Positions 4,686 to 64,000 of a stretch of 64,000 bases of DNA are shown here, piece by piece. Position numbers and translations under genes: made by a program. The notes beneath the pieces were generated by a model. That model made no database searches, was not told where the DNA came from, and saw only the letters and a list, made by a program, of their open reading frames with translations. The stretch is taken from assembly GCA_963668035.1 (NCBI GenBank), contig OY764073.1, forward strand, positions 4,743,308 through 4,807,307, read 5' to 3'. This stretch comes from Candidatus Poribacteria bacterium (lineage in GTDB: Bacteria > Poribacteria > WGA-4E > WGA-3G). Position 1 is the stretch's first letter, and every line of letters begins with the position of its first letter.

Positions 4686-4834
4686 TCAGGTTATCTAAGG
4701 AGATAATCCATCGGCGGTTCGTTGTCTTTGATGGGGAACCGCCATTTCGGCAATCTTGAAAGCATCTGAGGCAGGCAAGAAATAAGATTTCATAGGAGAC
4801 TGACAATTCTGTTCATTAATGATGGAGAATGCTA

Positions 4835-50031: not shown

Positions 50032-50661
50032 ATGGCATTTACGGATTTCACATCTATTGCACAGGTGCAGGAAACCTTTGACATCAAATATGTTGAAGAA
50101 GAATACATCCGATACGATGTTGATATTGAACCTTCCTCGGCGTTTTTGGAAGAGTTCACGTTTAGCCAGCAATATATTGACGTGTTGGCTTCAGAAACGT
50201 CCCGTTGTGAGAATGTTATCTATCCGATTCTCAGAGATGTTTACAAAAAATATGCTGACCGTTTTTCGCTGTGGAGCCATAAATCTATTGCTTACGACGC
50301 GCAACTCAGTGGTACCCCGGACTACCTCATTTCAACAAAATCAGCGTTGGGAAAAACGGTGCTTGGCACCCCCATCATTGTTGTTGTTGAGGCGAAACGA
50401 AATGACTTTATAGTAGGCTGGGGGCAGTGTTTAGCGGAACTCGTTGCGATTCAACGGATCAATGATGACGCTTTGCAGCCTGTTTCTGGTATTGTAACAG
50501 ATGGTGAGATGTGGCAATTCGGCAAATTAGCTGGGGACCTATTTACGCGAAACACGTCTCCTCTCGCTATCGGCGAGTTGCGGAAGGTATTTGGAGCGAT
50601 TGGGCATTTAATGCAAGCTAATTTACCTGAAACCGCAGAGCCAAATACCCACACAGCCTAA
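50032..50661 (+). CDS. Hypothetical protein with a PD-(D/E)xK nuclease-like motif
   Basis: GTPDYLIS...IIVVVEAKRND matches a PD..(D/E)xK arrangement. Length is 209 aa. Confidence 0.35.
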   Translation: MAFTDFTSIAQVQETFDIKYVEEEYIRYDVDIEPSSAFLEEFTFSQQYIDVLASETSRCENVIYPILRDVYKKYADRFSLWSHKSIAYDAQLSGTPDYLISTKSALGKTVLGTPIIVVVEAKRNDFIVGWGQCLAELVAIQRINDDALQPVSGIVTDGEMWQFGKLAGDLFTRNTSPLAIGELRKVFGAIGHLMQANLPETAEPNTHTA

Positions 50662-50760
50662 ATTCTCTCATATCAGTATAGAAAGGACATGACTCTATGT
50701 CAATAGCGGATGAGACGTTTGCGGTCAGTGAAGCAGATAAGGCGTTGAATAGGAAATTTC

Positions 50761-51606
50761 ATGGAGAATAAACAAACCTCAACTTCAACCCGTTACTATT
50801 TTGTAGATGAGGGCGGTGATAGCACCCTCTTTTCCCGTAAAGGAAAGGCGATTGTGGGTACAGAGGGATGTTCCCGGTTTTTTGTTCTCGGTTTACTGGA
50901 CGTATTGGATCCAATAGCACTAAAAGAGCGTTTTGATCGATTGCGGGCACAACTCATGGGTGATTCCTATTTCAAGAGTGTACCCTCTATGCAACCGTCC
51001 AATAGAAAAACTGCCCTTGCCTTTCATGCCAAAGATGACCTACCTGAAGTACGGAGAGATGTTTTCAGGCTTTTGCACGACACTGAGGGGTTACGCTTTT
51101 TCGCTGTCGTTGCGGATAAAATGAACGTGCTTGAATACGTGCGCCAACGCAACAAACGAGAACCCGATTACCGTTATCACCCTAACGAACTTTACGACTA
51201 TTTGACAGGATGTTTGTTCAAAAGAAGATTACGTCAGCATTGTAGATATGATATTATCTTCTCAAAACGCAGCAAATCTGGGCGCATCCATTCCTTGCGT
51301 CAAGCAATTGAAGCGGCACCGAACCTACTACAAAATCAGGACAATTTACAAAACCATATACTAACCGATGTGTCTCTGAATATATCTGCAGCAACGCCAA
51401 AAGAATATGCTGGTTTGCAAGCCGTTGATTATTTTATCTGGGCATTACAGAGGTTTTATGAACGAGATGAAGATCGATATTTAGCCTATCTATGGAAGGC
51501 TTTCGGGCTTGTACACGATATTGATGACACACGCGAGACAGATTATGGTGTTTATTATACACAAAACAAGCCGCTCACATTAGAAGCATTAAAGGGGAGA
51601 AAATAA
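50761..51606 (+). CDS. DUF3800-like hypothetical protein
   Basis: The N-terminal YYFVDEGGDSTLF resembles the DUF3800 YxFxDESG start motif. Length is 281 aa. Confidence 0.4.
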   Translation: MENKQTSTSTRYYFVDEGGDSTLFSRKGKAIVGTEGCSRFFVLGLLDVLDPIALKERFDRLRAQLMGDSYFKSVPSMQPSNRKTALAFHAKDDLPEVRRDVFRLLHDTEGLRFFAVVADKMNVLEYVRQRNKREPDYRYHPNELYDYLTGCLFKRRLRQHCRYDIIFSKRSKSGRIHSLRQAIEAAPNLLQNQDNLQNHILTDVSLNISAATPKEYAGLQAVDYFIWALQRFYERDEDRYLAYLWKAFGLVHDIDDTRETDYGVYYTQNKPLTLEALKGRK

Positions 51607-51983: not shown

Positions 51984-53720
51984 GTGGGTGAATTGTTTCA
52001 ATTTATTTTTAACCTTGACGATCCAGTGGGAAGGAACATCGTACGGATTATTCTTGTCTGCTTTATGGCCGGAGTTTTAAACTATCTTTGGCACATCGCA
52101 GTGAGGTTGCCGTGGGAATGGTGGAATCTCCACCAAGCCAAAACCTATATTGAAAAAAAATCAGGAATAGGTGATATATCGGATTTACTTCAGAATCTCC
52201 GCGACGCGGGGATCCGGGTCCGTAGCGTCATTTACCAGCGAATCGCAGATTTCGTTCGCATTAAACAGAGTGGGGGCCACATAGATAACGATGCTCTGGC
52301 TGACATCCTCACGGGTAGAGAAAGTAGAAAAGCGAGTCTGGCGAACCATACTTTGGGCATCCTAATTATTCTCGGTTTGATAGGAACGTTATGGGGATTA
52401 ATTACCGCGCTTATTAAAGTGCAACCGCTGCTAACAGGTATCCAAGATTTTGAGCAGCTCCCCGAAATTTCCGAAACCCTTAAGGCGACTGTTGCCAGTA
52501 TGAGCACGGCATTTGCGACAACACTAACAGGATTAGGAACATCGCTCCTTTTGGGTTTTTTCGGTTGGGGTTTTAATCGTTTCCAATCCACGTTTCTGAC
52601 GCGTTTTGAAACTTATATCTCAACGGTGCTCATACCCGAATTTACACAGAGGGCAGATACGTCCATTGAGTCCGCTGTTGAGCATCTTTCCGCGGCTGCC
52701 AATATGCTGGAATTTGCAACGAAAGAAAATGTAAGGGTTATACAACAGGCGATTCAGCAATTAACGGATACGTCATGGGGCGGACGGCTGGAGCAGCAGT
52801 ACATATTGGCAAATCAATTTGGCACCACTGCTGAGAGCCTCCTTAAGAGTTTGACAGGGATCAATGAATATCAGGTTCTCATCAAAACCGCCGTTGCGCA
52901 ATTTCAGGATTTGACCACAGAGTCAATGTCTCAGATTAAGGCGTATCAAGTAACACTGCGTCAAGGGTTGGAGGATTCGGTGCCAAAACTGCAAGAAGAG
53001 AGTGAGGCGTTAAAGGAAGCAATTAGCGCGTATCAGCAGTCACAATCCCGATTTATTGACGAACTTTCGGATACTTTACAACGGCAGCTACAATCTATCA
53101 CAGAAAATCAGCAGCACATGGTTCATGTGCTTACCGAATTGGCAAAGCAACTCCAGATTCTTCCGATCCTTGAGACACAGAACCAAATTTTCGAGCGGAT
53201 CGAAATCCAGTTAGCAGAAAATCAAGAAGAAGCGATCCATACTTTTAAACAATTAGAAGGTACATTCCAAAGCAGTCTTCGCTCGGCATTTGCGGCACAA
53301 AATGAGGTGTTTATGGATATACAGGCCCAATTGATAGAAAATCGACGGGAGACTGTTGAAGCTCTTACGCACTTAACAGGTGAGCTCCAGATTCGCTCTA
53401 CGCTTGAGGCACAAAATCAAGTTTTTGAACGTATTGAAAACCATTTGATTGGGCGTAGAGAATTGGATTCTGAACAGAGACAGCTCATGCAAACGCTCAT
53501 CACAAAAATTCAGCAATTGGCGGAAGTCCCCGCGGTGGAGATAAATTCGACCGCAGGGAGAGATGCATCACAGCAAATATCGCCACAGTTGCTCAGCCAG
53601 ATATCTCTTAAACTTGAGACATTGAATCAAAAATTTGATATACTTAACAACACGACGCGGCAGCCCGGCCTTTATCGTTGGTTTTCGGAAATCCGCCGCT
53701 GGTTCGGGGGTTCTCCTTAA
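51984..53720 (+). CDS. MotA/TolQ/ExbB-family proton-channel protein with a long C-terminal coiled-coil tail (ZorA-like)
   Basis: The GTG start at 51984 is tentative. The transmembrane signatures are LGLIGTLWGL and STAFATTLTGLGTSLL. A ~350-aa heptad-rich tail with internal repeats follows (QLQILPILETQNQIFERIEIQL versus ELQIRSTLEAQNQVFERIENHL). Confidence 0.6.
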   Translation: MGELFQFIFNLDDPVGRNIVRIILVCFMAGVLNYLWHIAVRLPWEWWNLHQAKTYIEKKSGIGDISDLLQNLRDAGIRVRSVIYQRIADFVRIKQSGGHIDNDALADILTGRESRKASLANHTLGILIILGLIGTLWGLITALIKVQPLLTGIQDFEQLPEISETLKATVASMSTAFATTLTGLGTSLLLGFFGWGFNRFQSTFLTRFETYISTVLIPEFTQRADTSIESAVEHLSAAANMLEFATKENVRVIQQAIQQLTDTSWGGRLEQQYILANQFGTTAESLLKSLTGINEYQVLIKTAVAQFQDLTTESMSQIKAYQVTLRQGLEDSVPKLQEESEALKEAISAYQQSQSRFIDELSDTLQRQLQSITENQQHMVHVLTELAKQLQILPILETQNQIFERIEIQLAENQEEAIHTFKQLEGTFQSSLRSAFAAQNEVFMDIQAQLIENRRETVEALTHLTGELQIRSTLEAQNQVFERIENHLIGRRELDSEQRQLMQTLITKIQQLAEVPAVEINSTAGRDASQQISPQLLSQISLKLETLNQKFDILNNTTRQPGLYRWFSEIRRWFGGSP

Positions 53721-53748: not shown

Positions 53749-54426
53749 ATGGATCTGCGGATGCGGAAGACATCCGTTTTGAACGTCTGGCCCGCTTTTA
53801 CTGATGTCGCTATCACGATGCTCCTTATCCTGCTATTTTTCCTGTTCATTCAGTTCCTTTCTGACATCAAACCCATCCAACAGATGCGACGGGAAAAAAA
53901 ACAGGAAGTCATGCAACGTGAATTTGAGAAACGGTTTGCAGATGAGATAGAACGTGGTATCATCGGTATTAACGTCGATGGTAACTTACAAAGTTTCAGC
54001 TTTAGCGACCGGATCCTCTTTGAAACAGCGAAGGCAGAATTACAGCCTCTCGGACGTGCGACCCTCACCGATGTCGGGAGATTATTGTTGCAACGCTACA
54101 CCGAAGGCGACAAAGGGCAATGGCAACGTGCTACAGCAGCCGAAGGCGGCGAAATCTTGTATCAAAGCGTCCAAATCAACGGACATACAGACAATGTACC
54201 GATTGAGACCTTGCAATTCCCATCAAACTGGGAACTGTCATCCGCGCGTGCCATCGCTGTCTTACGCCTTTTCGTTGATGACTTACAAATGGATCCGCTC
54301 ACTTTGCTTGCGACAGGGTATGGCAAGTACCACCCTGTCGCTTCAAATGCGTCTGTGGCAGGACGTGCGAAAAACCGCCGAATTGAGATTATACTCGTTT
54401 ACTCCGAAACCGGTGAGACCGAATGA
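53749..54426 (+). CDS. MotB/OmpA-family peptidoglycan-binding membrane anchor (ZorB-like)
   Basis: The N-terminal transmembrane helix carries a conserved Asp (FTDVAITMLLILLFF). The C-terminal OmpA-like region is NGHTDNVPI...SNWELSSARA...GYGKYHPVASNASVAGRAKNRRIEI. Confidence 0.7.
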   Translation: MDLRMRKTSVLNVWPAFTDVAITMLLILLFFLFIQFLSDIKPIQQMRREKKQEVMQREFEKRFADEIERGIIGINVDGNLQSFSFSDRILFETAKAELQPLGRATLTDVGRLLLQRYTEGDKGQWQRATAAEGGEILYQSVQINGHTDNVPIETLQFPSNWELSSARAIAVLRLFVDDLQMDPLTLLATGYGKYHPVASNASVAGRAKNRRIEIILVYSETGETE

Positions 54427-55847
54427 ATTCAGAAACGGGGAACACAATGGATACTTGTCCGTTTACGCACGAAAATACTGCCTGTGATTTGCTATCAACC
54501 GAGCTCAAACGGGACATTGGACAGATGCCGAAAGCGGCTTATTGCCAACAATGTTCCGCGGTCGCCTTTCGGTGTTCTGATGGCCATTGGAACCGTACCT
54601 TTGCCCGTTTTTGCACACAATGTGGCGAAAAGCTTGAAAAACCGCGAGTATGGGAGATGGCTTCCGCGAATTCACAGCGCACAGCCACAGTTACATCGGA
54701 AGGGTTGGTGGATTCACTGTCCAGTGATTTCGGTTTCACTTCTTGGTCGCTGGACATACCGAGGGTGGAAACTCGCGAGAATTTGCCGGCTTTGTTGGCA
54801 ATTGATGGAATCGTTGTTGTACCAAATCCGGGTGCAGGTAGGCTTGATGTTTACCCGATTGCTAAATCATCTGCACAGCGGCGGATACGTCCGGAATGGA
54901 GCATCGAGCTTAATGCACCAGGGACATACGGTTCAACACCTATCTATCATGACCTCCATCTCTTTTACGTTATATCCGGCAGCATTCAGAAAAAGTCAAT
55001 TCTGGGCGGAGAGGCGGAACCTGTCCCGTTAGCAGGCGTGGATGCTGCAGAGATCGAACCCGCGCCCGAAGCCGCTCCTTTAAAATTTGAGATAGATGAT
55101 AAATATTTTATGCTTGCACCCATGAAACAACATGGGGTATTATTGTTTGACCTCACGGACTATAAAAAACTTTACATTAAGGATAAATTCTTTGCATCGG
55201 AGAACAGACCGATGTCGCCGACGATCTGTGGCAAGTACGCAATTTTCACATCTCACGAAGGCGGTATTTTTTCTCTCAACACGGAGACTCTTAAGTCGTG
55301 GTCCAAAACCTGGACGAGTTTGTCGTTTTCAGCCCCCGTTTCGCTTAACGGTTCGGTCTACTTTGAAGTCCTGGATAACAGCGGTGCCCGCAGCCTCGCG
55401 TGTTATGGACCCCAGAACAATGAATTATCGAAAATCTATGATTTAGATTGCGAACCACCAAACGCTTTAGACCAACGCAGGTCGCTTTTTATCCACCCGC
55501 CGCTCACAGATGGAAAGCGATTGTTTTTAGCCGATAGATTCGCAGAGACGGTCTATACCTATCATAGCGAGCATCGGTACGATGAAAAGAGACCGCTGCG
55601 TAAGGATAACCGTCAACCTTTATTTATCCCGCACCGATCGGTTGTAGTGGGCAATCAAATTTATTCCGCACATTCAGCGGGGTTGACTGTTATTGATGTC
55701 AATAGAGACTACACGCATTCATATCAATCGTTAGCGGTGGGGAGCCCGCGCAACCCGTCGCCTGTCGCTCCACCGATTCGTTATGGAGACAAGTTATTCA
55801 TCCTCTGTAAGGAGCAATTAGTTTGTCTGAATACCCGGAGAAATTGA
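54423..55847 (+). CDS. Zinc-ribbon-containing protein with a PQQ-like beta-propeller-like C-terminal region
   Basis: It overlaps the zorB-like stop (ATGA). The N-terminal Cys clusters are CPFTHENTAC and CQQCSAVAFRC...CTQCG. The remainder shows repeated G-x-hydrophobic blades. Confidence 0.4.
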   Translation: MNSETGNTMDTCPFTHENTACDLLSTELKRDIGQMPKAAYCQQCSAVAFRCSDGHWNRTFARFCTQCGEKLEKPRVWEMASANSQRTATVTSEGLVDSLSSDFGFTSWSLDIPRVETRENLPALLAIDGIVVVPNPGAGRLDVYPIAKSSAQRRIRPEWSIELNAPGTYGSTPIYHDLHLFYVISGSIQKKSILGGEAEPVPLAGVDAAEIEPAPEAAPLKFEIDDKYFMLAPMKQHGVLLFDLTDYKKLYIKDKFFASENRPMSPTICGKYAIFTSHEGGIFSLNTETLKSWSKTWTSLSFSAPVSLNGSVYFEVLDNSGARSLACYGPQNNELSKIYDLDCEPPNALDQRRSLFIHPPLTDGKRLFLADRFAETVYTYHSEHRYDEKRPLRKDNRQPLFIPHRSVVVGNQIYSAHSAGLTVIDVNRDYTHSYQSLAVGSPRNPSPVAPPIRYGDKLFILCKEQLVCLNTRRN

Positions 55848-55851
55848 AGTG

Positions 55852-57786
55852 ATGAAGCTTTCAAGAAATCCATTTATGATAGCGGTTTTACTTGCTTTTA
55901 TTTTTTTCGTGCCTGCTGTGAATGCCAAACACATCATCGTGACTTACGATGTGTCTGGCAGTATGTTGCGTCATCATAACAAAACGTATATGAGATCCGA
56001 GGATATCAGCAGGCTCAATACATACTTGACAAAACTGATTTTCACAGATATGTCGCACCCTTTGCTGGATAACAGTAAGGACAAATTCATCAAGGAATGC
56101 GATTCCGCGTACGCTGGCAGAAGCCTCTATCAGGCGGGTGATGTCCTCACCTACGCTGAGTATGCCGAGGATCGACGCGAGAAAATAAGCAGATCACCGG
56201 TGAACGCTAACGAATTTCAGGAACAGCTGCCTGATCCGACGAATTTAAGGCGGTCCTTTTATGGGATGGTATCTTACTTATTGCGCGCCGAAGTCGAGGT
56301 ATACGATGAATTGTTCAAAGAGGCGGATGACGAAACGTATTGGATCTTTGTGACGGACGGCGACATTGATCGTAGTGAAGAAAGTGATTCTGAAATCCGC
56401 CAAGTTTTACAGCGGCATGCGCAAATTGAAGAGGGATTCCATTCTCCGCTGATTTGCAGTATCCTTTTCAATGATCGTGTCAAAATCGAAGTGAGACGAA
56501 TCCAGAGGCGCGTAGTTATTGACACAATCTTCGTTGCCAATCAGACACACGCGAAGACAGAGATTCAAGACATCCAATTTGGAAGGGATGATACGGGACA
56601 ATTGGATGATATTGGACAGTTTACCAGCGAAACCTTGATTATTAACACGGAAAGCTCCGAAAAAACGGCATTCACATTGGGCAGTGTCACCGTTAAAGTT
56701 ACCGATAAAAACGGTAGCCCGCTTCAAATTGTTGGCGAGGATAATAGCACAAAGCCTCTACAGATTGCGCCTATCTCACTCCAAGGAAAATCACCACCGG
56801 CTATGTTCCGCATCTCACTCCCAGCATACTCCGAATTTACAGCACCTGAGAATTTATTGAGCCTTGAGGTCTTCTATAGTTATAACGGGGTTGACAGCGT
56901 GCATCAGGTACTGCCGGTCAGTTATACTGCGGTGATTGATAACATCTATTTGTCAGCGGGAACACTCCGCGTCCTATCTCCGGAAGACGCATCCATACCT
57001 TTCGGAGAACGCGGATGGCGAGGCGGAGAATTGGAACTATGGCTTCTGGACGACACTTACCTCGGAGAGCTTGTTGTTCAGAGCGAAAGCCGGAACAAAG
57101 CGGCTTTTCAGATCAAAGAAATTCTGTGTTATGTTCAAGATAAAGCCGGTCAAAAACTTTGCGATGCAAGTGTTTCAAATTCTCCAGAGAGTTTAGGGGA
57201 GCGGTTTCAAATTGCGGTTCCGAAACGCGAACGTTTGGATTGGTTTGGAAACAGTTTGACTTTGGAAATTAAATACCAATATGACGAGAAACCCAAAACT
57301 GTAGATGTTTTGATCCCCTTTAAACTCCGGTCAAACAGCGGTTTTCCGACATGGCTGCTGATTATTCTGCTATGTGTCGTGGTAATTCTTCTACTGTTTT
57401 TTGTGATCCGTGGGGTGCAAAGTTTGATAACACCGGATCCCGTGGAGATTAGGTTAGCTGAAGTTGGTGGAGATGGTATTGAGCGGAGTTTTAACCTCAC
57501 ACACAAGGCACATCTTGAATTTGGTCCCGGTGACGACGAGACATTGCGTTTTGATGTCGGCAGTTCTGCCCTCTTACGCTGCCGCCACGGAAGAATTTCG
57601 CTTTATGAAAACGCCCTTGCCGAGGAAGGAGAAGTATTAAGCACCAGTCAAACACTCACAGTGCGGCGCGACAGCGACGACGAACAGATTTCCATCAGTT
57701 TTGAAATTGTGGATGACGAACCGCAAGAAACCTTTGAGGATGACATCACCGAAGAGACTGAAGAGGATGACCCACTCCCTTATTAG
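55852..57786 (+). CDS. Membrane-anchored von Willebrand factor A (vWA) domain protein
   Basis: A signal peptide is followed by the MIDAS motif IIVTYDVSGSM (DxSxS). A late transmembrane helix FPTWLLIILLCVVVILLLFFVI and an acidic C-terminal tail EDDITEETEEDDPLPY follow. Confidence 0.55.
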   Translation: MKLSRNPFMIAVLLAFIFFVPAVNAKHIIVTYDVSGSMLRHHNKTYMRSEDISRLNTYLTKLIFTDMSHPLLDNSKDKFIKECDSAYAGRSLYQAGDVLTYAEYAEDRREKISRSPVNANEFQEQLPDPTNLRRSFYGMVSYLLRAEVEVYDELFKEADDETYWIFVTDGDIDRSEESDSEIRQVLQRHAQIEEGFHSPLICSILFNDRVKIEVRRIQRRVVIDTIFVANQTHAKTEIQDIQFGRDDTGQLDDIGQFTSETLIINTESSEKTAFTLGSVTVKVTDKNGSPLQIVGEDNSTKPLQIAPISLQGKSPPAMFRISLPAYSEFTAPENLLSLEVFYSYNGVDSVHQVLPVSYTAVIDNIYLSAGTLRVLSPEDASIPFGERGWRGGELELWLLDDTYLGELVVQSESRNKAAFQIKEILCYVQDKAGQKLCDASVSNSPESLGERFQIAVPKRERLDWFGNSLTLEIKYQYDEKPKTVDVLIPFKLRSNSGFPTWLLIILLCVVVILLLFFVIRGVQSLITPDPVEIRLAEVGGDGIERSFNLTHKAHLEFGPGDDETLRFDVGSSALLRCRHGRISLYENALAEEGEVLSTSQTLTVRRDSDDEQISISFEIVDDEPQETFEDDITEETEEDDPLPY

Positions 57787-58032: not shown

Positions 58033-58395
58033 GTGCAGAATTTTGACTTTCTTGCCAATTCGCTGGTTTGGCCGGTTTACTTCGGCCTCGTTACTTACAT
58101 TCTCGCGTGGGTTGGCGCGCGTTTCTTTGCCGGTATACTTGCAAAGCGAATCGGTAGTGAACGCGGCGGCACTGAACGCGGGACAATTCAAGCATGGCGC
58201 ATGATGATTATTCTGCATCTGATCGCGTCGGCAATTTTTGTCGGTTATCTCTGCTTTCGTGCACTCCCGCGGGTTGAGGAATGGACAGATACCCTCTGGC
58301 ATCTGGTTCCATTTCTACCGTTTCTCGTTTTGGATGTATGCTTGTTAATATCATTGGCGTCCCAGGGTCCGAAAAAGCAAAAGAAAAAACAATGA
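58033..58395 (+). CDS. Small 3-transmembrane membrane protein with a lysine-rich tail
   Basis: GTG 58033 lies 5 nt after AAGGAGA. Three hydrophobic helices are followed by the C-terminal GPKKQKKKQ. Confidence 0.45.
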   Translation: MQNFDFLANSLVWPVYFGLVTYILAWVGARFFAGILAKRIGSERGGTERGTIQAWRMMIILHLIASAIFVGYLCFRALPRVEEWTDTLWHLVPFLPFLVLDVCLLISLASQGPKKQKKKQ

Positions 58396-58413: not shown

Positions 58414-61400
58414 ATGGTGCAACCAACGTTGTTTATTGGCCTCGGAACAACCGGATTGAATATTCTTAAAACGCTCCGTCAGTTCATGTTTGAGGAATAT
58501 GCGACGGGCGGTTTGCCGGTGTTTCGCTATGTTGCGATCGAGACTGACGAAAGAAATACAGACTCACAACAGGGCGAAGCTTACGAGCAAATTGACGTGG
58601 TTCACGCTACGATTGGAAGCACTAACCCCATTGGCCTCAAACTGAATCGTGATGAGACATCTTATTACAACCCTGATTTGGAAGACTGGCTTGAGGCCTC
58701 CCTTCTAACTGAAATTACAAGCTTTCGAGAGGGGGCGCGCAACATTCGCATGGCCGGTAGGTTGTGTTTGTGGGAAAACTGGAACGACATGCGTGATACG
58801 ATCCATCGTGCCTATACGGATATGGTAGCAGACGAATCACGCCGTGAAACTGAGCGGATTTTGACCCAATACTATAACACCAAAGGTTTGGAGTGTCCTG
58901 CACAACTGGTAGATCTGGGAAATATTAATGCTTATGTCGTCGGTTCGCTTTGCGGTGGTTCTTGCAGTGGTATGCTCATTGAGGTCGCATACTTCCTCAG
59001 AAATCTTTTGGGTGACCCTAAAACTACCCAAATTTACGGTATGTTCACTATGTTCGACAAGGATCTAGTGATGGAACCGGGGAAAGATGCTGCGGTGCGT
59101 GCAGCCAATTGCTATGCCAGTCTTTGGGAACTCAATTACTACAGTCATATCGATACGACTTACAGCGTTACCACGCCGAATGGAGAACGGCTTGCCGAGG
59201 CGGCGCAGCGGCCTTTCAATTACACAATGCTGGTCTCTCGTACTGGGAAAAATCCTAACATCAAATTCACGAGACCTGGTATCTCTTTTGATGAGGAAGG
59301 TTTGAACCTGATGGTCGCTCTGAATCTCTTTGCCGAAACCGCCGGAGATACGGTTGAGACCAAGGGGGCTATCCGTACAGATTGGGCAGGTTTCGCCGGT
59401 TATGGCGAATTAAAATCTGGTGCAATGGGTGAAATTCCTGTCATGATAAGAGATATGGCGAGTTTTGGGTTAACCGCAGTATGGTATCCGAAATATAGGA
59501 TTGCCAATGCTGCTGCCTGCTTAGTTAGCAAAAGCTTATGTGAGAGTTGGTTGGACCAACATACATCTAAGGCTGATATTGCTGCAGATGTTGAAAAGGC
59601 ACAAGATACGATCATCCGCGGGAATCTGGGTATCCTCGCGCGTCCGGCAGTAGCCGGAAGACCCTCACTGGATTCAGAAATCGAAAATCTGCTTAACGAG
59701 GTGCGTACACGGTTTAGTCAGGCACCCTCCAATACATTGGAATCCGAGGTGCGTGCGTTTCCAAAGGGTGAAGGGGGTGCTTTCAGAGCCAGATTTGCCG
59801 AAGGCGGAACCTATTTCAAAGCGATGCAAGAAAATCTCGCTGCGTGCAAAGCCGCATTGCTTAATGAAATTGATGAGTCTTTCAACAACCAGTTAGCAAG
59901 GATTGATTTAGAGGGGACATACGGTTTAGGCGATGTGCGGGTCTTCTTTAGGGAATTAGCAGATGCTATCACCAGAACGAGGGACCAATATCCTGCGGAG
60001 CCGCCTACTTTAGAGTTCAGCCAACTTGATTTTGGACCGATGCGGGGTGCTGAAAAGAATTTTTGGACGAAAATTACCGGTAATCAAGAGGATGCCGTGA
60101 ACGAACACCGGGAAAATTTAATGCAGAGCTATAGGCAGTTGATTACCGGAGACCGGGGAATCTTCCGAAAACTCCGCGGTTACTTTCTGCGCCAAGCTTT
60201 GGATGCCGTGCTCGCTAAACTCGGTTTTCAGGTTCACACCGATGATTCATCTGAATCCACAATCCAACAGGAATTGGATGAACTTCAGAGAACGCTCAAT
60301 AATTGCGTTCAGACATTTGAGGAGACGTACCAAGATAGTGTGCAACCGCCAAGCTCTGAATGTGTCCGAATTGTGACGCTCAATCCTGAAAACGAAATTA
60401 GCAAGGATACCGAGGACCTGAGCAAAACCGTTAACGGAAATCGAGCGAACGCGGGATTGTTCGATCGAGATGGGACGGCCTCTTTCTTGAAGAAAGGGCA
60501 TGAGGACATCACATATCACCTGAGTGAAACCTATCGTCGTTCGGCGTTGCGCGAACTCGATCGGGGAGGCGCAGGAAGAGCACAAGTTGTTGCAAAGGCA
60601 CGGGAACTTTTAGATGCCGAGGGTAACCAGATTGAAGCGTTGGCTGTCCGATCCAATCCTTACCAAAAGTTTGCTGACACCTACCAACCCTTTAAATTGG
60701 CAGTAGAGCCGAAGATTATCTTTGGACATGACTCAACAGGTGAACATTTAGCACACCTCAGAGAACGTCTGCAGTTTGACCGTATCGGCAGTTCTCCTAT
60801 TGACCACCTTCTCTTTTTCTACGAGGAGGAAGCCGGTTTTGCCTTAGATGACTTGGATGCATACGCAGCCCTTAGATCTCAATTTGAGGCTTGCCCAGGG
60901 AAATACGGCCATTCTACGCATCAAGATGTGAACTTTTACGATTTGGAAATTCCGCACCGAAGCAAACGGTTAGAGCGTTGGTGTCAGGCACTCACGGCTC
61001 TTGTTCCTTTAATCTCGGCATCTGATCCGGAGGCGTTCGTAGGCGTATTTACGCAGACACCGAGCGACGATATCTTGTTTGAATACCAGATTGATGGCGT
61101 AAATAGAGCACTTTCTTTGTTCAATGAAGAAGGGATTAGGGAACTCTGCCAGGCAGAAAACGAGAGCACTTATGACAGGTTTTTTGAATCAGTAGAGGCA
61201 GCATTGAAACGACTGGGGCGTGAACGAATTGAAAAGGTCGTCAATGAAAGACTACTGACCAAAGTTGAAAATATTGAGGAACGGAATACGTTGTCCGTTT
61301 TCTACGCTGAGTTTTTGAAGGATGTCTATCCAGATGCTGGATTCGAGACACATGATAATGCAGGTTCACAAGACGATGCACATGCTAACGTTGAATCCGA

Positions 61401-61704
61401 GGCCCCGGCAGCTTCCGAAACTGAGGACAGTGCTTTTAAATTTGAAGACATACTCTATCTCCAAACGGTTGTCCAAAAGCCGATGGGAGATTGGACAACG
61501 GAAGAACAAGCGTTGATGCGGAACTTTACTTTTGAAGATGTGCTGCGGCTCCAAGCCGTTTTCCAAAAACCGATGGGAGAATGGACACCAGAGGATCAGG
61601 CGTTAATGCAGCGTTTTAAACAAAATTCTGCAAGCACCGAACCTTCAGATGGATATGACTCAGAGGGCACTGAAGGCACTGAGTCTCACGGCACTTTGGC
61701 GTAG
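58414..61704 (+). CDS. Giant (1096 aa) protein with an N-terminal tubulin/FtsZ-like GTPase-like region and a C-terminal tandem repeat
   Basis: A strong RBS AGGAGG precedes the start. LFIGLGTTGLNIL resembles the T1 loop IGVGGGGNN. GGSCSGM resembles the T4 loop GGGTGSG. The C-terminal repeat FKFEDILYLQTVVQKPMGDWTTEEQALM / FTFEDVLRLQAVFQKPMGEWTPEDQALM appears twice. Confidence 0.45.
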   Translation: MVQPTLFIGLGTTGLNILKTLRQFMFEEYATGGLPVFRYVAIETDERNTDSQQGEAYEQIDVVHATIGSTNPIGLKLNRDETSYYNPDLEDWLEASLLTEITSFREGARNIRMAGRLCLWENWNDMRDTIHRAYTDMVADESRRETERILTQYYNTKGLECPAQLVDLGNINAYVVGSLCGGSCSGMLIEVAYFLRNLLGDPKTTQIYGMFTMFDKDLVMEPGKDAAVRAANCYASLWELNYYSHIDTTYSVTTPNGERLAEAAQRPFNYTMLVSRTGKNPNIKFTRPGISFDEEGLNLMVALNLFAETAGDTVETKGAIRTDWAGFAGYGELKSGAMGEIPVMIRDMASFGLTAVWYPKYRIANAAACLVSKSLCESWLDQHTSKADIAADVEKAQDTIIRGNLGILARPAVAGRPSLDSEIENLLNEVRTRFSQAPSNTLESEVRAFPKGEGGAFRARFAEGGTYFKAMQENLAACKAALLNEIDESFNNQLARIDLEGTYGLGDVRVFFRELADAITRTRDQYPAEPPTLEFSQLDFGPMRGAEKNFWTKITGNQEDAVNEHRENLMQSYRQLITGDRGIFRKLRGYFLRQALDAVLAKLGFQVHTDDSSESTIQQELDELQRTLNNCVQTFEETYQDSVQPPSSECVRIVTLNPENEISKDTEDLSKTVNGNRANAGLFDRDGTASFLKKGHEDITYHLSETYRRSALRELDRGGAGRAQVVAKARELLDAEGNQIEALAVRSNPYQKFADTYQPFKLAVEPKIIFGHDSTGEHLAHLRERLQFDRIGSSPIDHLLFFYEEEAGFALDDLDAYAALRSQFEACPGKYGHSTHQDVNFYDLEIPHRSKRLERWCQALTALVPLISASDPEAFVGVFTQTPSDDILFEYQIDGVNRALSLFNEEGIRELCQAENESTYDRFFESVEAALKRLGRERIEKVVNERLLTKVENIEERNTLSVFYAEFLKDVYPDAGFETHDNAGSQDDAHANVESEAPAASETEDSAFKFEDILYLQTVVQKPMGDWTTEEQALMRNFTFEDVLRLQAVFQKPMGEWTPEDQALMQRFKQNSASTEPSDGYDSEGTEGTESHGTLA

Positions 61705-61727
61705 TCATAAAAGAGATAATTGATTAT

Positions 61728-64000
61728 GGCAAACACGATATGTCCGAAATGCAATGTCGATTGGGAAATTCTCGCGCAGGATCAATATTGCGGTTATTGC
61801 GGTCATAAAGTTTTTGATTTTTCGGTGGAATGGGATGGCAAGAAAGAACCGCTCTTTTATGAAAGTCAAAGTGGAGGCGAACAGTCACTGACACTTCTCG
61901 TAAAAAATACGGGTGTTGCCCCGATTACGTTTGAACCGCTTCAGATGCCCCCGGGAGAAGCGGTTCAGGTGTTAGGCGAGAATAAAAAATTTAAAGTCGC
62001 GGCTAACCAAGCCCGCGCGCTTGCACTTTCTATTAATTCCGGAAAGTTGACGAGCGAGCCGCTTCAGATGCTGACAGTGCGGCCACAAAAAACGTCCGCC
62101 GAACTTAAAGAGGCGCGATTGACATTTCGGGCGTTACGGCATCCCGACTTTAAGCTGACACCCAGTTTTCTCCCGATTCGTTATCACAAAAACACGAAAA
62201 CGAAGACAGTGGACCTGCGGCTTGAGGTCGCGCGCAGCGAATTTTATATCTACAAGATTGAATCCGCGCAGGCATGGATCAAAGACATTGCGTTTGTTGA
62301 CTTTACGCCGCAAGAGCGTCTTGGCGAAAAACAGACACCGAAAAGCATCCGCCTGGAGATTGATTGCAACGCTCTCAAAGACGGACTCAATAAAGCGATG
62401 TTAGTTGTTCAGCTGCGCGGGATTCCTGAGCCCATACAACAGGAAATTCGCTTCAATGCGGAGGTGCAACCTGACCCCCCGGCACTATCTGTCCAGCTGC
62501 CGACATCACATCTTGAAGTCCATCAGAACAGGAAAAAAAGTTACCCTTTGACGCTTAAGAATGAAGGGGAGCTGCGGTTGGACATTTCAAACATTAGTTT
62601 CAGCGATTCTCCGTACCTCGTCCAATTGGCGGATGTCGACCTTCCCATACATATTGAGGGAGGGAAAGAGCTGCAGCTGGACTTGATGGTATCTCCGGCG
62701 GACATTCAACCGCAAACGTACCCTATCGACTTCGTTGTTACCTCCAATTGTGAGCGCGCACAGCAGTATCAAGATGTGCTGCATGTAACAGTCAAACCCC
62801 AAGAAGTGTATCCACATCATCTCGCGATTGATTTTGGGACAACAAATTCCTGTTGTGCCTACATCGATACAGATTATAAAATAATACTTCTCCCACTCGA
62901 TAGCGAAGCGGATCCACCGGATATTATGCCTTCATCCATTATTTACCACGACCACCCTGAAAACGAAAAGACATACCAGGTTGGATACGACGCTGAGACG
63001 CAACGGACGGGTGCTGATAGTCCGTATTATGTCTCTTCTGTGAAAAGGTGGTTAGGGTATGGATGGCATCGGCAATTTCCGAACAACATGGCGTTGCAAC
63101 CGCGCGATGTGGTCTCGGATATCCTCAAACACATCATCAACACGGCAGCAGATTATCTGGAGCAACAACACCTCCCTTCGAAGGTTCAGAGATGTGTCGT
63201 TACATACCCGACGATGTTTACCCGACAGCAGCAGGACGACTTGAAAGAAGCTTTTAAGAATATCGGTATCTCCGAACTCATCCTTATTGATGAAGCTTCA
63301 GCAGCCTCCATGGAGATCATCTTTAAAAAACAGGAAACCTTACAAAATAACTACAGACTGTTGGTCTATGATTTCGGAGGTGGCACCATTGATATCGTTC
63401 TCTCTCAGGTAACAATTGATGACAACGATATCACCATTGAACCGATCGCCCGCGGCGGAAGTCGCAGATACGGCGGCGACGACGTAACACACGCAATCGT
63501 TGACTTTATCCTCCAGGAATTCAAGGCGCGAATCCAAAAGGCACATCCAGACCTCAATTTCGACATCCCATATTTTAAACCCAAGCAGATTGTGAAAATC
63601 ACTGGAAATGAGGAGATTGATAGAGCGACATACAGTAACGTCGCTAGCTTGTTCCGACGCGCGGAGGAGATGAAAAAAGAACTGAATACACAAACGGAGA
63701 CAGAATTCTTTTTTCCTTTGGAGGTTAGCATCGAAAATGAGGTACGTAGCTCTAATGAACTCACCCAAGACGTTTCAGGTGTGAAACTTTCAGCGGAACA
63801 ATTTCGAGCGTTTATTGAACCTGAACTCAAGGAAACTTTCGCAAATATTGATGCAATGCTTGCTGAAAATGACGAGCTTTTACCCGATACCGTAGTCCTT
63901 GCCGGTCAGTCATCCAGAATGCAATTAGTTAAAGATATGATGGCAACCCATTTCCAGGAAAAATATGGGAAAGCGGTTGAGATCGAACTTAATCAACAGC
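61728..64000 (+). CDS. Hsp70/DnaK-family ATPase with an N-terminal zinc ribbon and Ig-like region (3'-truncated by the window end)
   Basis: The N-terminal CPKC...CGYCG is a zinc ribbon. The phosphate-1 motif AIDFGTTNSCCAY, phosphate-2 VYDFGGGTIDIVL and adenosine motif VVLAGQSSRMQLVKDMM are all present. The ORF is open to position 64000, which is why it is not in the complete-ORF track. Confidence 0.75.

What the first reader, a model, noticed from the sequence alone, without database searches (positions are those of the whole stretch)
61728..64000. Hsp70-family ATPase with N-terminal zinc-ribbon and Ig-like modules, encoded in the stator-like cluster
All three actin-fold phosphate/adenosine motifs of Hsp70 are intact, but the protein starts with a CxxC...CxxC ribbon and about 330 aa of beta-rich sequence instead of beginning with the nucleotide-binding domain. 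It is not a canonical DnaK. It is probably a dedicated ATPase of the neighbouring system, and a vWA plus Hsp70-like pairing is suggestive of a regulated assembly. The window end truncates it.
Basis: seen in the sequence. Interest (0 to 1): 0.6.

Follow-up and report, generated by a model that had tools for sequence, protein, structure and literature searches.

The report
Specialised Hsp70 in a stator–tubulin operon
The gene encodes an unusual Hsp70-type ATPase (zinc ribbon, three Ig-like domains, ATPase domain, peptide-binding domain, no lid) that is a fixed component of a conserved operon of at least 11 genes, which also encodes a Zorya-like ion-driven stator, a tubulin-like GTPase and probable GrpE-like exchange factors, and whose biological role is unknown.

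Summary
An ORF starts at ATG 61726 (not 61728) and stays open for 758 codons to the window end. It has an invariant CxxC…CxxC ribbon, three beta-sandwich domains and an intact Hsp70 nucleotide-binding domain.

- **Length:** the 758 residues are 100% identical to a 921-aa database protein. The gene is therefore cut by the window, not a pseudogene.
- **Substrate-binding domain:** the missing part is an Hsp70 SBD-beta with no helical lid.
- **Subfamily:** it is not DnaK, HscA, HscC or YegD. NCBIfam scores are 33–101 bits against cut-offs of 331–823.
- **Context:** it always follows a Tubulin_2 (FtsZl1) gene in one operon: ZorA/MotA-like, ZorB/OmpA-like, Zn-ribbon protein (probable beta-propeller), probable periplasmic vWA protein, small membrane protein, tubulin-like, this Hsp70, an unknown protein, two paralogous probable GrpE-like proteins, and a transglutaminase-like protein.
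- **Fusion:** 20 of 120 homologs carry the GrpE-like domain fused to their C-terminus. A divergent variant encodes a Pfam-certified GrpE.

Best reading: a dedicated, catalytically competent Hsp70 clamp with its own exchange factors, acting on a component of this envelope-spanning machine. Whether the machine is anti-phage defence or a cytoskeletal/envelope device is open. Parts were noted earlier (Makarova & Koonin 2010; Kaur et al. 2020). I found no description of this combination or architecture.

The parts
61726..64000 (+). g7: ZnR-3xIg-Hsp70 gene, first 758 of 921 codons (cut by the window end)
   Evidence: Open frame. Pfam HSP70 1.1e-26. 100% identical to P0127, 921 aa.
61726..61815 (+). 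g7 N-terminal zinc ribbon (aa 1-30; C6, C9, C22, C25)
   Evidence: All four Cys are invariant in 116 homologs. Weak Pfam Zn_Ribbon_1 hit. Modelled as a short beta ribbon.
61819..62796 (+). g7: three Ig-like beta-sandwich domains (aa ~32-135, ~140-250, ~254-357)
   Evidence: AF2 secondary structure. HYDIN/VesB/CFA65-like Ig and DUF1573 hits in family members. E 0.02 in the window sequence.
62809..64000 (+). g7 Hsp70 nucleotide-binding domain, through the adenosine motif (aa 725-730) to aa 758. Motifs: phosphate-1 at 62830-62850, phosphate-2 at 63370-63387, adenosine at 63898-63915.
58414..61704 (+). g6: Tubulin_2 / FtsZl1-family GTPase, 1096 aa, with a long helical region and an acidic C-terminal tail
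   Evidence: Pfam PF13809 2.1e-43. Directly upstream of g7 in all standard-order loci. In the rearranged variant L086/L087 it lies downstream.
58033..58395 (+). g5: small membrane protein (120 aa) with three predicted TM segments
   Evidence: Conserved position and sequence. Hydropathy scan.
55849..57786 (+). g4: signal peptide, probable periplasmic vWA domain (MIDAS DVSGSM, WIFVTDGD), beta-rich region, TM segment and cytoplasmic tail
   Evidence: Motifs are invariant in 7 orthologs. TM prediction. Only a weak Pfam VWA hit in the L086 counterpart. No PDB hit.
54423..55847 (+). g3: cytoplasmic Cys-rich (double zinc-ribbon) protein, probably with a beta-propeller
   Evidence: Conserved Cys pattern. 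The counterpart in L086 hits DZR, Zn_ribbon and beta-propeller/PQQ_2 families.
53749..54426 (+). g2: MotB/ZorB-like stator subunit with a TM helix carrying a conserved Asp (WPAF[T/A]D) and an OmpA-type peptidoglycan-binding domain
   Evidence: Pfam OmpA 3.3e-12. PADLOC ZorB3 4.5e-23 over the full length. NCBIfam MotD/MotB C-terminal domains. Asp conserved.
51984..53720 (+). g1: MotA/ExbB/ZorA-like channel subunit with a long coiled-coil cytoplasmic tail
   Evidence: Pfam MotA_ExbB at threshold. PADLOC ZorA3 1.3e-12 over aa 120-516. Tail length varies between strains.

Best explanation
The gene encodes a specialised, catalytically competent Hsp70. Its order of domains is zinc ribbon, three Ig-like beta-sandwiches, nucleotide-binding domain and SBD-beta, with no helical lid. 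It is 921 aa in this organism.

It is not a general chaperone. It is a fixed subunit of a conserved operon of at least 11 genes that builds a membrane-spanning apparatus:
- a ZorAB/MotAB-type, peptidoglycan-anchored ion-driven stator with a long cytoplasmic tail (g1, g2);
- a cytoplasmic Zn-ribbon protein, probably with a beta-propeller (g3);
- a probable periplasmic vWA protein with a cytoplasmic tail (g4);
- a small membrane protein (g5);
- an FtsZl1/Tubulin_2 GTPase (g6);
- this Hsp70 (g7);
- an unknown 410-aa protein (g8);
- two paralogous coiled-coil proteins with a probable GrpE-like C-terminal domain, one of them with predicted N-terminal TM segments (g9, g10);
- a probably periplasmic transglutaminase-like protein (g11).

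**Proposed mechanism.** The Zn-ribbon and Ig modules dock the Hsp70 onto the apparatus. The Hsp70 then runs an ATP-driven bind-and-release cycle on an extended segment of one partner. The most likely clients are the tubulin-like protein's disordered tail or its polymer, or the cytoplasmic tail of the vWA protein. The g9/g10 GrpE-like pair resets the cycle at the membrane.

The Hsp70 would thereby control assembly or disassembly of the tubulin-like polymer. Comparable cases are Hsc70 in clathrin uncoating and the membrane-tethered mtHsp70-Tim44-Mge1 motor.

**Shown:** Hsp70 identity, intact catalytic residues, SBD-beta, absence of a lid, the conserved operon, and fusion with the g9-like domain.

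**Probable (about 0.65):** the GrpE nature of g9/g10.

**Inferred (about 0.3-0.4):** the client and the polymer-remodelling role.

**Undecided:** whether the system serves anti-phage defence or a cell-envelope/cytoskeletal function.
For: **Hsp70 identity**
- Pfam HSP70 1.1e-26.
- PDB profile search finds DnaK at 1e-32, and the alignment runs into SBD-beta.
- Foldseek top 50 hits are all Hsp70/Hsp110 (DnaK E 4e-30, 590-740 aligned columns).
- The core residues of phosphate-1, phosphate-2 and adenosine motifs are invariant, as are K440 and E523.

**Full length**
- 100% identity to the 921-aa P0127.
- A locus 98.8% identical in DNA (L092) shows a 921-aa gene followed by g8-g11.

**Synteny**
- The order g1-g11 is kept in L001, L082, L083, L084 and L092; L002 (g3-g11) and L085 and L088-L090 (g1-g7 at most) hold only part of it.
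- 79 unrelated Hsp70-like loci (about 25% identity) contain none of the partner genes.

**N-terminal module**
- It is essentially restricted to this architecture: 36 hits in 1.84e9 representatives, and the ten divergent hits I scanned were mostly 880-960 aa with HSP70 after about aa 360.

**GrpE link**
- The C-terminal extension of the 1167-aa forms is 59% identical to g9.
- 20 of 120 homologs carry it.
- hhalign of g9/g10 against the Pfam-certified GrpE-domain protein of variant locus L086 gives E 1.9e-4 and 2.4e-4, inside the Pfam GrpE match.
- Six of the top seven Foldseek PDB hits of the modelled domain are GrpE/GrpEL1 (prob up to 0.98).
- L086/L087 encode the Hsp70-like protein, a second Hsp70, GrpE, a beta-propeller protein, a vWA-like protein, a small membrane protein and Tubulin_2.

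**Stator**
- PADLOC ZorA3 1.3e-12 and ZorB3 4.5e-23.
- Conserved TM Asp in g2.

**Precedents**
- FtsZl1 + vWA + OmpA (+ MotA in Deinococcus; one DnaK-like and one GrpE neighbour listed in the supplement): PMC2875224.
- Tubulin, HSP70 and GrpE as components of predicted conflict systems: PMC7159879.
Against: - No J-domain protein or conserved HPD motif was found anywhere in the operon. How ATP hydrolysis is triggered is therefore unexplained.
- No client has been identified. The repeat motif in the g6 tail of this strain is not conserved in orthologs.
- The vWA domain of g4 is supported only by motifs.
- There are no experimental data for any member.
Confidence: 0.72

Rival explanations
1. The whole operon is a Zorya-like anti-phage defence system. 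The ZorAB-like stator senses envelope perturbation. The tubulin-like GTPase and the Hsp70/GrpE module then act as the cytoplasmic signalling or effector arm, for example by forming assemblies that arrest the cell or trap phage components. This concerns the biological role and is compatible with the molecular explanation above.
For: - The best defence-model matches of g1 and g2 are ZorA3 and ZorB3.
- The operon abuts a variable defence hot spot. In the window this holds DUF3800 and a PD-(D/E)xK protein. In strains with an identical g2 it holds a type III RM methylase, DUF3800 and a ResIII helicase.
- A CBASS-type cyclase and an Eco57I-type RM gene lie 15-22 kb upstream.
- Kaur et al. 2020 predicted that tubulin, vWA, HSP70 and GrpE modules act in conflict systems.
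- Transposases flank some copies.
Against: - No nuclease, toxin or other recognisable effector is present.
- No PADLOC model matches any of g3-g13 beyond coiled-coil noise.
- ZorC, D, E, F and G are absent.
- The 11-gene order and the sequences are unusually stable (g11 about 70%, g2 60-84% identity).
- The few named members are all Poribacteria. This looks more like lineage-wide vertical inheritance than patchy transfer.
- The flanks in L083 and L084 are metabolic genes.
Confidence: 0.35
2. The operon builds a lineage-specific cytoskeletal or membrane-remodelling machine, as Makarova and Koonin proposed for FtsZl1 operons. The Hsp70 would be its assembly or disassembly factor. It would have a housekeeping cell-biological role rather than an immune one.
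For: - It fits the FtsZl1-vWA-OmpA(-MotA) operon type described in PMC2875224.
- Many membrane and periplasmic components are present.
- All components are well conserved, and there are hundreds of full-length homologs at about 50% identity on chromosomes of 5-9 Mb.
- There is a peptidoglycan-binding anchor and a probably periplasmic transglutaminase-like enzyme.
Against: - No phenotype or localisation data exist.
- The operon neighbours defence genes and transposases.
- The stator is closest to Zorya models among the libraries searched.
Confidence: 0.35
3. The protein is an actin-like filament former or membrane tether for the tubulin-like protein, an FtsA/MreB-type partner as in the ftsA-ftsZ gene pair. 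It would not be a chaperone-type clamp.
For: - It lies adjacent to a tubulin-family gene.
- There is a partial Pfam MreB_Mbl hit (33.5 bits, aa 461-605).
- It belongs to the actin/Hsp70 superfamily fold.
Against: - The HSP70 score is much higher (93.7 bits).
- All 50 listed top structural matches are Hsp70s or Hsp110.
- An SBD-beta with a DnaK-like linker and strand pattern is present.
- The Hsp70-specific catalytic Lys and Glu are invariant.
- GrpE-like partners are encoded or fused.
Confidence: 0.05
4. The protein is an ordinary stress chaperone paralog (of DnaK, HscA, HscC or YegD type) that happens to lie next to the cluster, or a decaying pseudogene.
For: Some sources annotate it as 'molecular chaperone DnaK (HSP70)'.
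Against: - NCBIfam scores are 33-101 bits against cut-offs of 331-823.
- It has a unique N-terminal module.
- Synteny is strict across divergent loci.
- The frame is intact and matches an identical full-length protein.
- Catalytic motifs are invariant.
Confidence: 0.02

Closest known systems
Canonical bacterial Hsp70s (DnaK, HscA, HscC, YegD)
   Same: It has the same NBD fold with intact phosphate-1, phosphate-2 and adenosine motifs and the catalytic Lys and Glu. A hydrophobic interdomain linker is followed by an SBD-beta. It probably uses a GrpE-type exchange factor.
   Different: - About 360 extra N-terminal residues: a zinc ribbon and three Ig-like domains.
- No helical lid in the 921-aa form.
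- In about 1 in 6 homologs, a GrpE-like domain is fused to the C-terminus.
- Only about 20% identity to DnaK, with scores far below all equivalog cut-offs.
- No J-protein in the operon.
- Strictly operon-bound.
FtsZl1 (Tubulin_2) operons of Makarova & Koonin 2010 (PMC2875224)
   Same: A Tubulin_2/FtsZl1 gene sits next to a vWA-type protein, an OmpA-family protein and, in Deinococcus, a MotA/ExbB protein and a small ~109-aa protein. The paper's supplement lists one DnaK-like neighbour (amb2961) and one GrpE neighbour (Cagg_1315).
   Different: The paper does not mention Hsp70 in its text. It does not describe the ZnR-Ig-Hsp70 architecture, the GrpE-like paralogs, the transglutaminase-like protein or this fixed 11-gene order. 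It lists no P-loop-free versions like this one, and the GTPases and kinases it describes as common are absent here.
Zorya anti-phage systems (ZorAB stator plus ZorC/D, ZorE or ZorF/G)
   Same: g1 and g2 match the ZorA3 and ZorB3 models. g1 has a long cytoplasmic tail. g2 has a TM Asp and a peptidoglycan-binding domain.
   Different: None of the Zorya effector or partner proteins is present. They are replaced by a tubulin-like GTPase, an Hsp70, GrpE-like proteins, a vWA protein and others. A defence function has not been tested.
GAP1-N2-type DO-GTPase 'conflict systems' with tubulin/vWA or HSP70/GrpE themes (Kaur, Burroughs, Iyer, Aravind 2020, PMC7159879)
   Same: The component vocabulary is shared: tubulin homologs, a membrane protein with an extracellular vWA domain, HSP70 with GrpE and sometimes a second HSP70, beta-sandwich repeat modules, and N-terminal zinc ribbons on the NTPases.
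   Different: - The defining DO-GTPase and GAP1 proteins are absent: no P-loop and no Pfam hit.
- The tubulin and HSP70/GrpE themes are described there as non-overlapping, in Firmicutes and Actinobacteria. Here they coexist.
- MotA/stator components are not mentioned in that paper (0 occurrences).
- Here the beta-sandwich repeats are fused to the Hsp70 itself rather than to a DnaJ protein.
CnuD/CnuCD Hsp70-like NBD/SBD proteins of CoCoNuT McrBC systems (PMC11090510)
   Same: An Hsp70 NBD+SBD unit is recruited as a dedicated subunit of a multi-gene system, sometimes near vWA genes.
   Different: The motifs in CnuD are reported as degenerate, with RNA binding proposed. Here they are invariant. 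The partners differ (McrB GTPase, HEPN), and no homology beyond the Hsp70 fold was tested.

Membership tests
Hsp70 family (PF00012) | Actin-fold NBD with phosphate-1 (DxGTTxS), phosphate-2 (DxGGGTxD) and adenosine (GGxxR/S-type) motifs | tested here: met
   DFGTTNS at 369, DFGGGT at 549 and LAGQSS at 725. Their core residues are invariant in 116 homologs. Pfam HSP70 1.1e-26.
Hsp70 family (PF00012) | Catalytic Lys (DnaK K70) and Glu (E171) equivalents | tested here: met
   K440 in SVKRWLG and E523 in IDEASAAS are invariant. They align to IKRHMG and INEPTAAA of DnaK 2v7y. The equivalence to K70 and E171 rests on my knowledge of DnaK numbering.
Hsp70 family (PF00012) | Substrate-binding beta-sandwich (SBD-beta) after a hydrophobic linker | tested here: met
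   This part lies outside the window. It is present in P0127, which is identical over the window part. The profile alignment to DnaK runs through the equivalent of 'VLLDVTPLSLGI'. The AF2 model has strands at 783-902. Foldseek aligns 590-740 columns to full-length DnaK and BiP.
Hsp70 family (PF00012) | Alpha-helical lid (SBD-alpha) | tested here: not met
   The 921-aa and ~907-aa forms end about 15 residues after SBD-beta. The long forms instead carry the g9-like (GrpE-like) domain.
DnaK / HscA / HscC / YegD equivalogs | Score above the curated NCBIfam cut-off | tested here: not met
   HscA 100.8 bits against 708.55. DnaK 98.2 against 648 and 96.2 against 822.55. YegD-type PRK11678 33 against 331.
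Hsp70 chaperone system | Dedicated GrpE-type nucleotide exchange factor | tested here: inconclusive
   **For:** hhalign to a Pfam-certified GrpE-domain protein gives E about 2e-4. The top Foldseek hits are GrpE. The domain is fused to the Hsp70 in 20 of 120 homologs.

Hsp70 chaperone system | J-domain co-chaperone (HPD motif) | tested here: not met
   No DnaJ Pfam or NCBIfam hit in g1-g13. No conserved HPD motif. A J-protein encoded elsewhere in the genome cannot be excluded.
Zorya defence system | ZorA (MotA-like with long tail) and ZorB (MotB-like with PG-binding domain) | tested here: met
   PADLOC ZorA3 1.3e-12 and ZorB3 4.5e-23. OmpA domain. TM Asp conserved.
Zorya defence system | Type-defining partner genes (ZorC/ZorD, ZorE, or ZorF/ZorG) | tested here: not met
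   No PADLOC hit for g3-g13 other than weak coiled-coil matches.
Zorya defence system | Protection against phage infection | not testable with these tools
   This needs heterologous expression and phage challenge.
FtsZl1 operon (Makarova & Koonin 2010) | FtsZl1/Tubulin_2 gene with vWA and OmpA-family neighbours | tested here: met
   Tubulin_2 2.1e-43 and OmpA 3.3e-12. The vWA assignment is at motif level only.
DO-GTPase/GAP1 conflict systems (Kaur et al. 2020) | DO-GTPase (TRAFAC P-loop) and GAP1 core pair | tested here: not met
   No Walker A motif in g1-g13. No Pfam family hit for g3, g4 or g8.
Actin-like filament formers (MreB/FtsA/ParM) | Best match to an MreB/FtsA-type model, with no SBD | tested here: not met
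   The MreB_Mbl hit is partial and weaker than HSP70 (33.5 against 93.7 bits). An SBD-beta is present.

The most novel reading that the evidence does not exclude
The operon is a previously undescribed type of envelope-spanning machine. In it, an ion-driven ZorAB-type rotary stator is coupled to a tubulin-family GTPase polymer and to a self-contained, probably membrane-tethered Hsp70-GrpE cycle. The Hsp70 is targeted by its own Zn-ribbon and Ig modules instead of by a J-protein.

The machine could be a new class of anti-phage immunity or a new bacterial cytoskeleton-envelope device. Either way, it would be the first case of an Hsp70 motor wired to a stator and a tubulin homolog.
Probability: 0.45. 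Interest if true: 0.8.

Novelty: new variant of a known kind. Interest (0 to 1): 0.62.

Why it matters
FtsZl1/Tubulin_2 proteins have had no known function since 2010. Zorya-type stators are only now being understood as signal-transducing rotary motors.

An operon that hard-wires such a stator to a tubulin homolog, and to a complete and apparently active Hsp70 module with probable GrpE-like partners, gives concrete hypotheses to test. One is that an Hsp70 remodels a bacterial tubulin-like polymer. Another is that stator rotation is coupled to cytoplasmic NTPase machines.

The protein also widens the known Hsp70 architectures in three ways:
- N-terminal targeting modules.
- Lid-less forms.
- Natural fusions of an Hsp70 to a probable exchange factor.

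These raise the question of how an Hsp70 can work without a J-domain partner.

Tried and rejected
1. **Genome-collection scan with the family alignment.** Only one true ortholog (L002) came back. The other 79 loci are unrelated Hsp70-like genes with no partner genes. They served as a negative control.
2. **Idea that g8 (410 aa) is a degenerate second Hsp70, like the 528-aa Hsp70 in L086.** hhalign against the g7 family and against the L086 protein gave nothing. PDB and Pfam gave nothing. The 120 listed g8 homologs of 189 carry no Pfam domain. This is unresolved and is not claimed.
4. **Idea that the 30-aa tandem repeat in the g6 tail is the conserved Hsp70 client motif.** It is absent from orthologs.
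5. **vWA confirmation of g4 by PDB profile search.** No hits.
6. **Exact look-ups of the window's g6 and of P0127.** Neither is on record. The window's own contig could not be extended, so near-identical L092 was used instead.
7. **The afdb50 fold library was unavailable.**
8. **Literature searches for stator + tubulin + Hsp70 combinations.** None found a description of this system.
Full report
**1. The observation**

Translating the three forward frames shows one open frame. It begins at ATG 61726, which is 21 nt after the stop of the preceding 1096-aa gene, and it runs without a stop to base 64000 (758 codons).

- CPKC at aa 6 and CGYC at aa 22.
- DFGTTNS at aa 369.
- DFGGGT at aa 549.
- LAGQSS at aa 725.

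Pfam gives HSP70 at E 1.1e-26, with a weaker partial MreB hit. A search of 5.8 billion proteins returned 651 homologs. The best 120 are full-length at 46-94% identity, with lengths of about 900-920 or 1146-1195 aa.

In an alignment of 116 homologs, the four Cys residues and the core residues of the three ATPase motifs are invariant. So are K440 (SVKRWLG) and E523 (IDEASAAS). These align with the catalytic Lys and Glu regions of DnaK.

**2. Full length and architecture**

The window fragment is 100% identical, without gaps, to P0127 (921 aa). It is 98-99% identical to two other 921-aa proteins and 94% identical to P0001 (1167 aa). Locus L092, 98.8% identical to the window in DNA, shows the 921-aa gene followed by more genes on the same strand. 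The gene is therefore truncated by the window and is not a pseudogene.

An AlphaFold model of P0001 (116-sequence alignment, mean pLDDT 81.7) shows these regions:

| Region (aa) | Feature |
|---|---|
| 1-30 | ribbon |
| ~32-135, ~140-250, ~254-357 | three beta-sandwiches |
| 362 to ~780 | Hsp70 NBD |
| 783-902 | beta-sandwich in the SBD-beta position |
| from 932 | long forms only: disordered linker, then helices and beta-hairpins |

Foldseek against the PDB returns only Hsp70/Hsp110 chains in the top 50. DnaK in the open ATP state scores E 4e-30, with 590-740 aligned columns. The family profile aligns to Geobacillus DnaK through the interdomain linker into SBD-beta.

The 907-921-aa forms stop about 15 residues after SBD-beta, so there is no helical lid.

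The beta-sandwiches are Ig-like. Pfam HYDIN/CFA65/VesB-like Ig and DUF1573 are significant in divergent members (2.4e-13 and 7.7e-7). They are sub-threshold in the window protein (E 0.02).

NCBIfam scores for HscA, DnaK and YegD-type models are 33-101 bits against cut-offs of 331-823. The protein belongs to none of the named bacterial Hsp70 subfamilies.

**3. The N-terminal module defines a narrow family**

I searched aa 1-362 against 1.84 billion cluster representatives. This gave only 36 hits at E ≤ 0.001. The full-length hits start at residue 1. Of ten divergent hits scanned, nine are 882-959 aa and carry an HSP70 domain after about residue 360, even at 22-29% identity in the N-terminal part.

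**4. Genomic context**

In the window, the gene is the seventh of a same-strand run:

| Gene | Coordinates | Description |
|---|---|---|
| g1 | 51984-53720 | MotA/ExbB-like with a long coiled-coil tail (PADLOC ZorA3 1.3e-12) |
| g2 | 53749-54426 | MotB/ZorB-like with a TM Asp and an OmpA domain (ZorB3 4.5e-23) |
| g3 | 54423-55847 | Cys-rich, no TM segment; the L086 counterpart hits double-zinc-ribbon and beta-propeller families |
| g4 | 55849-57786 | signal peptide, invariant DVSGSM and WIFVTDGD (vWA MIDAS-type pattern), TM segment, cytoplasmic tail |
| g5 | 58033-58395 | three TM segments |
| g6 | 58414-61704 | Tubulin_2, 2.1e-43 |

The related loci extend the run:
- g8: about 410 aa, with no detectable family.
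- g9 and g10: paralogs of 330-490 aa. g9 has predicted N-terminal TM segments.
- g11: about 345 aa and 69-70% identical between distant loci. It has a signal peptide, a GGGDCEDTT…H…ETT transglutaminase-like pattern and a C-terminal TM segment. It gives weak Transglut_core and LapG hits.

Some lineages add a PEGA-like protein and a second DxSxS-containing membrane protein.

The order g1-g11 is the same in L001, L082, L083, L084 and L092. L002, a Poribacteria chromosome, holds g3-g11. L085 and L088-L090 hold g1-g7 at most, where the contig or fetched stretch ends, and L091 holds only g1-g3.

Profile HMMs of g1-g11 found no partner gene in 79 loci encoding unrelated Hsp70-like proteins.

A more divergent variant (L086/L087) rearranges the core. 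Its order is the Hsp70-like gene, a second Hsp70 (528 aa), a 556-aa GrpE-domain protein (Pfam GrpE 2.3e-10), a Zn-ribbon/beta-propeller protein, a protein with a weak VWA hit, a 131-aa protein, and Tubulin_2.

**5. Exchange factors**

The C-terminal extension of the 1167-aa form is 59% identical over 276 aa to g9 of the same locus. An HMM of this domain finds it in 20 of the 120 best g7 homologs, that is, in all long forms but one. Strains more than 90% identical differ in having it or not.

The evidence for a GrpE-like fold is as follows:
- The conserved C-terminal block (…EVVPIEIGKTQADARxHDIQ…GTIVEVVLPGLRR…IIQKPVVIRGE) aligns by hhalign to residues 471-544 of the L086 GrpE-domain protein. 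This lies inside its Pfam GrpE match (E 1.9e-4 and 2.4e-4).
- A model of a 225-aa representative has modest confidence (pLDDT 64.5). Its top Foldseek PDB hits are T. thermophilus GrpE, both chains of E. coli GrpE bound to DnaK, human GrpEL1 and a GrpE-DnaK model. That is six of the first seven hits, with probabilities up to 0.98 but E-values of only 0.015-0.3.

The evidence against is as follows:
- hhalign to E. coli GrpE is insignificant.
- HMMER finds nothing in the PDB.

I rate 'g9/g10 and the fused extension are GrpE-like exchange factors' at about 0.65. Whatever the fold turns out to be, the recurrent fusion is strong evidence that g7 and g9/g10 work together.

**6. What it most likely does**

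- **Shown:** this is an Hsp70 with all catalytic residues conserved, an SBD-beta, no lid, a family-specific ZnR-3xIg N-terminus, and obligate linkage to a stator/vWA/Tubulin_2 operon.
- **Probable:** it has dedicated GrpE-like partners, one of which (g9) is probably membrane-anchored, so its nucleotide cycle would be localised at the membrane complex.
- **Inferred:** the ZnR/Ig modules dock it to the apparatus. g3 also starts with zinc ribbons, and Kaur et al. note N-terminal zinc ribbons on the NTPases of related systems. The SBD-beta would clamp an extended segment of a partner. The candidates are the acidic, disordered C-terminal tail or the polymer of the tubulin-like g6, or the cytoplasmic tail of g4. 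This would control assembly or disassembly. The analogy, from general knowledge, is to Hsc70 in clathrin uncoating and to the Tim44-tethered mtHsp70/Mge1 motor.
- **Gap:** no J-domain or conserved HPD motif is present in the operon. A specific repeat in this strain's g6 tail is not conserved and was rejected as a general client motif.

**7. Biological role**

Two readings remain about equally likely.

*Defence.* The stator matches Zorya models. The operon borders a variable hot spot holding DUF3800, a PD-(D/E)xK protein or type III RM genes in near-identical strains. A CBASS-type cyclase and an Eco57I-type RM gene lie upstream in the window. Kaur et al. predicted tubulin, vWA, HSP70 and GrpE modules in conflict systems.

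*Lineage-specific envelope or cytoskeletal machine.* This is the proposal of Makarova and Koonin. No recognisable effector is present, and no PADLOC model matches g3-g13. The gene order and sequences are very stable. Members lie on chromosomes of 5-9 Mb, and every named one is Poribacteria. Some loci have metabolic flanks.

**8. Relation to what is known**

- Makarova and Koonin (2010) defined FtsZl1 and its vWA/OmpA operons. Their supplement lists MotA/OmpA neighbours in Deinococcus, one DnaK-like neighbour and one GrpE neighbour. Hsp70 is not mentioned in the text.
- A 2023 survey still treats Tubulin_2 proteins as uncharacterised.
- Kaur et al. (2020) describe tubulin/vWA and HSP70/GrpE themes. 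These surround a DO-GTPase/GAP1 core that is absent here, and the paper makes no mention of stators.
- CoCoNuT systems use degenerate Hsp70-like units.
- Searches for the combination found nothing. The library does not cover all journals.

I therefore class the finding as a new variant of a known kind. It is a new Hsp70 architecture and a new composition of the FtsZl1/Zorya-like operon type.

**9. Verdict**

My confidence in the molecular explanation is 0.72. The biological role is undecided. Interest is 0.62.

Noticed in passing
window 29224-30783 (- strand): A 519-aa protein has SMODS / DncV-like nucleotidyltransferase and AGS_C sensor domains. It is a CBASS-type cyclic-oligonucleotide synthase. 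The adjacent minus-strand ORFs (30800-31735, 27866-29032) were not examined for effectors.
   Followed up: no
window 33793-36750 (- strand): A 985-aa protein carries an Eco57I-type restriction-modification methylase domain. It is probably a type IIG/IIL RM enzyme.
   Followed up: no
window 50032-51606; L089 869-8003; L091 752-4805: Directly upstream of the stator gene the window has a PD-(D/E)xK protein (PADLOC PD_DExK 1e-43) and a DUF3800 protein. In strains with an identical g2, the same position holds a type III RM methylase, DUF3800, a 409-aa protein and a ResIII/SWI2-SNF2 helicase. This is a variable defence hot spot abutting the operon.
   Followed up: partly
window ~61426-61611 (C-terminal tail of the Tubulin_2 protein): The tail has two tandem ~30-aa repeats of the form F.FED.L.LQ.V.QKPMG[DE]WT.E.QALM..F. 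Orthologs at about 44% identity lack them and have acidic low-complexity tails instead.
   Followed up: yes
window 51984-53720 versus L001 296-2146 and L092 341-1996: The called length of the ZorA/MotA-like protein differs (578, 616 and 551 aa) between strains that are otherwise 94-99% identical. At least the 616-aa form differs by internal indels, as the alignment spans 616 columns. The tail contains repeated coiled-coil segments (…QNQ[IV]FERIE…). A varying tail length may matter functionally, as it is reported to in Zorya. The start codons of the three gene calls were not compared.
   Followed up: partly
L001 10001-13504 versus L092 10001-12766: Hsp70-like proteins that are at least 90% identical exist in a 921-aa form and in 1167/1173-aa forms. 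The long form has acquired a copy of the downstream g9-type (probably GrpE-like) domain, 59% identical to g9. This points to fairly recent domain gain or loss by recombination within the operon.
   Followed up: yes
L002 3993-9848: In a Poribacteria chromosome, the Tubulin_2 gene of the operon appears duplicated. The second copy is split over two ORFs.
   Followed up: no
L092 16418-17452 (g11, just beyond the window end in the source genome): This is the most conserved protein of the operon (about 70% identity between distant loci). It has a signal peptide, a transglutaminase-like Cys-His-acid pattern (GGGDCEDTT … H … ETT) and a C-terminal TM segment. It gives weak hits to Transglut_core and the LapG protease. 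It may be a periplasmic protease or cross-linking enzyme of the system.
   Followed up: partly
window 4829-7774 (+) and 17766-19964 (-): The first is an ECF sigma factor fused to about 800 aa of BNR/sortilin-type beta-propeller repeats (981 aa). The second is a 732-aa protein made entirely of WD40 repeats.
   Followed up: no
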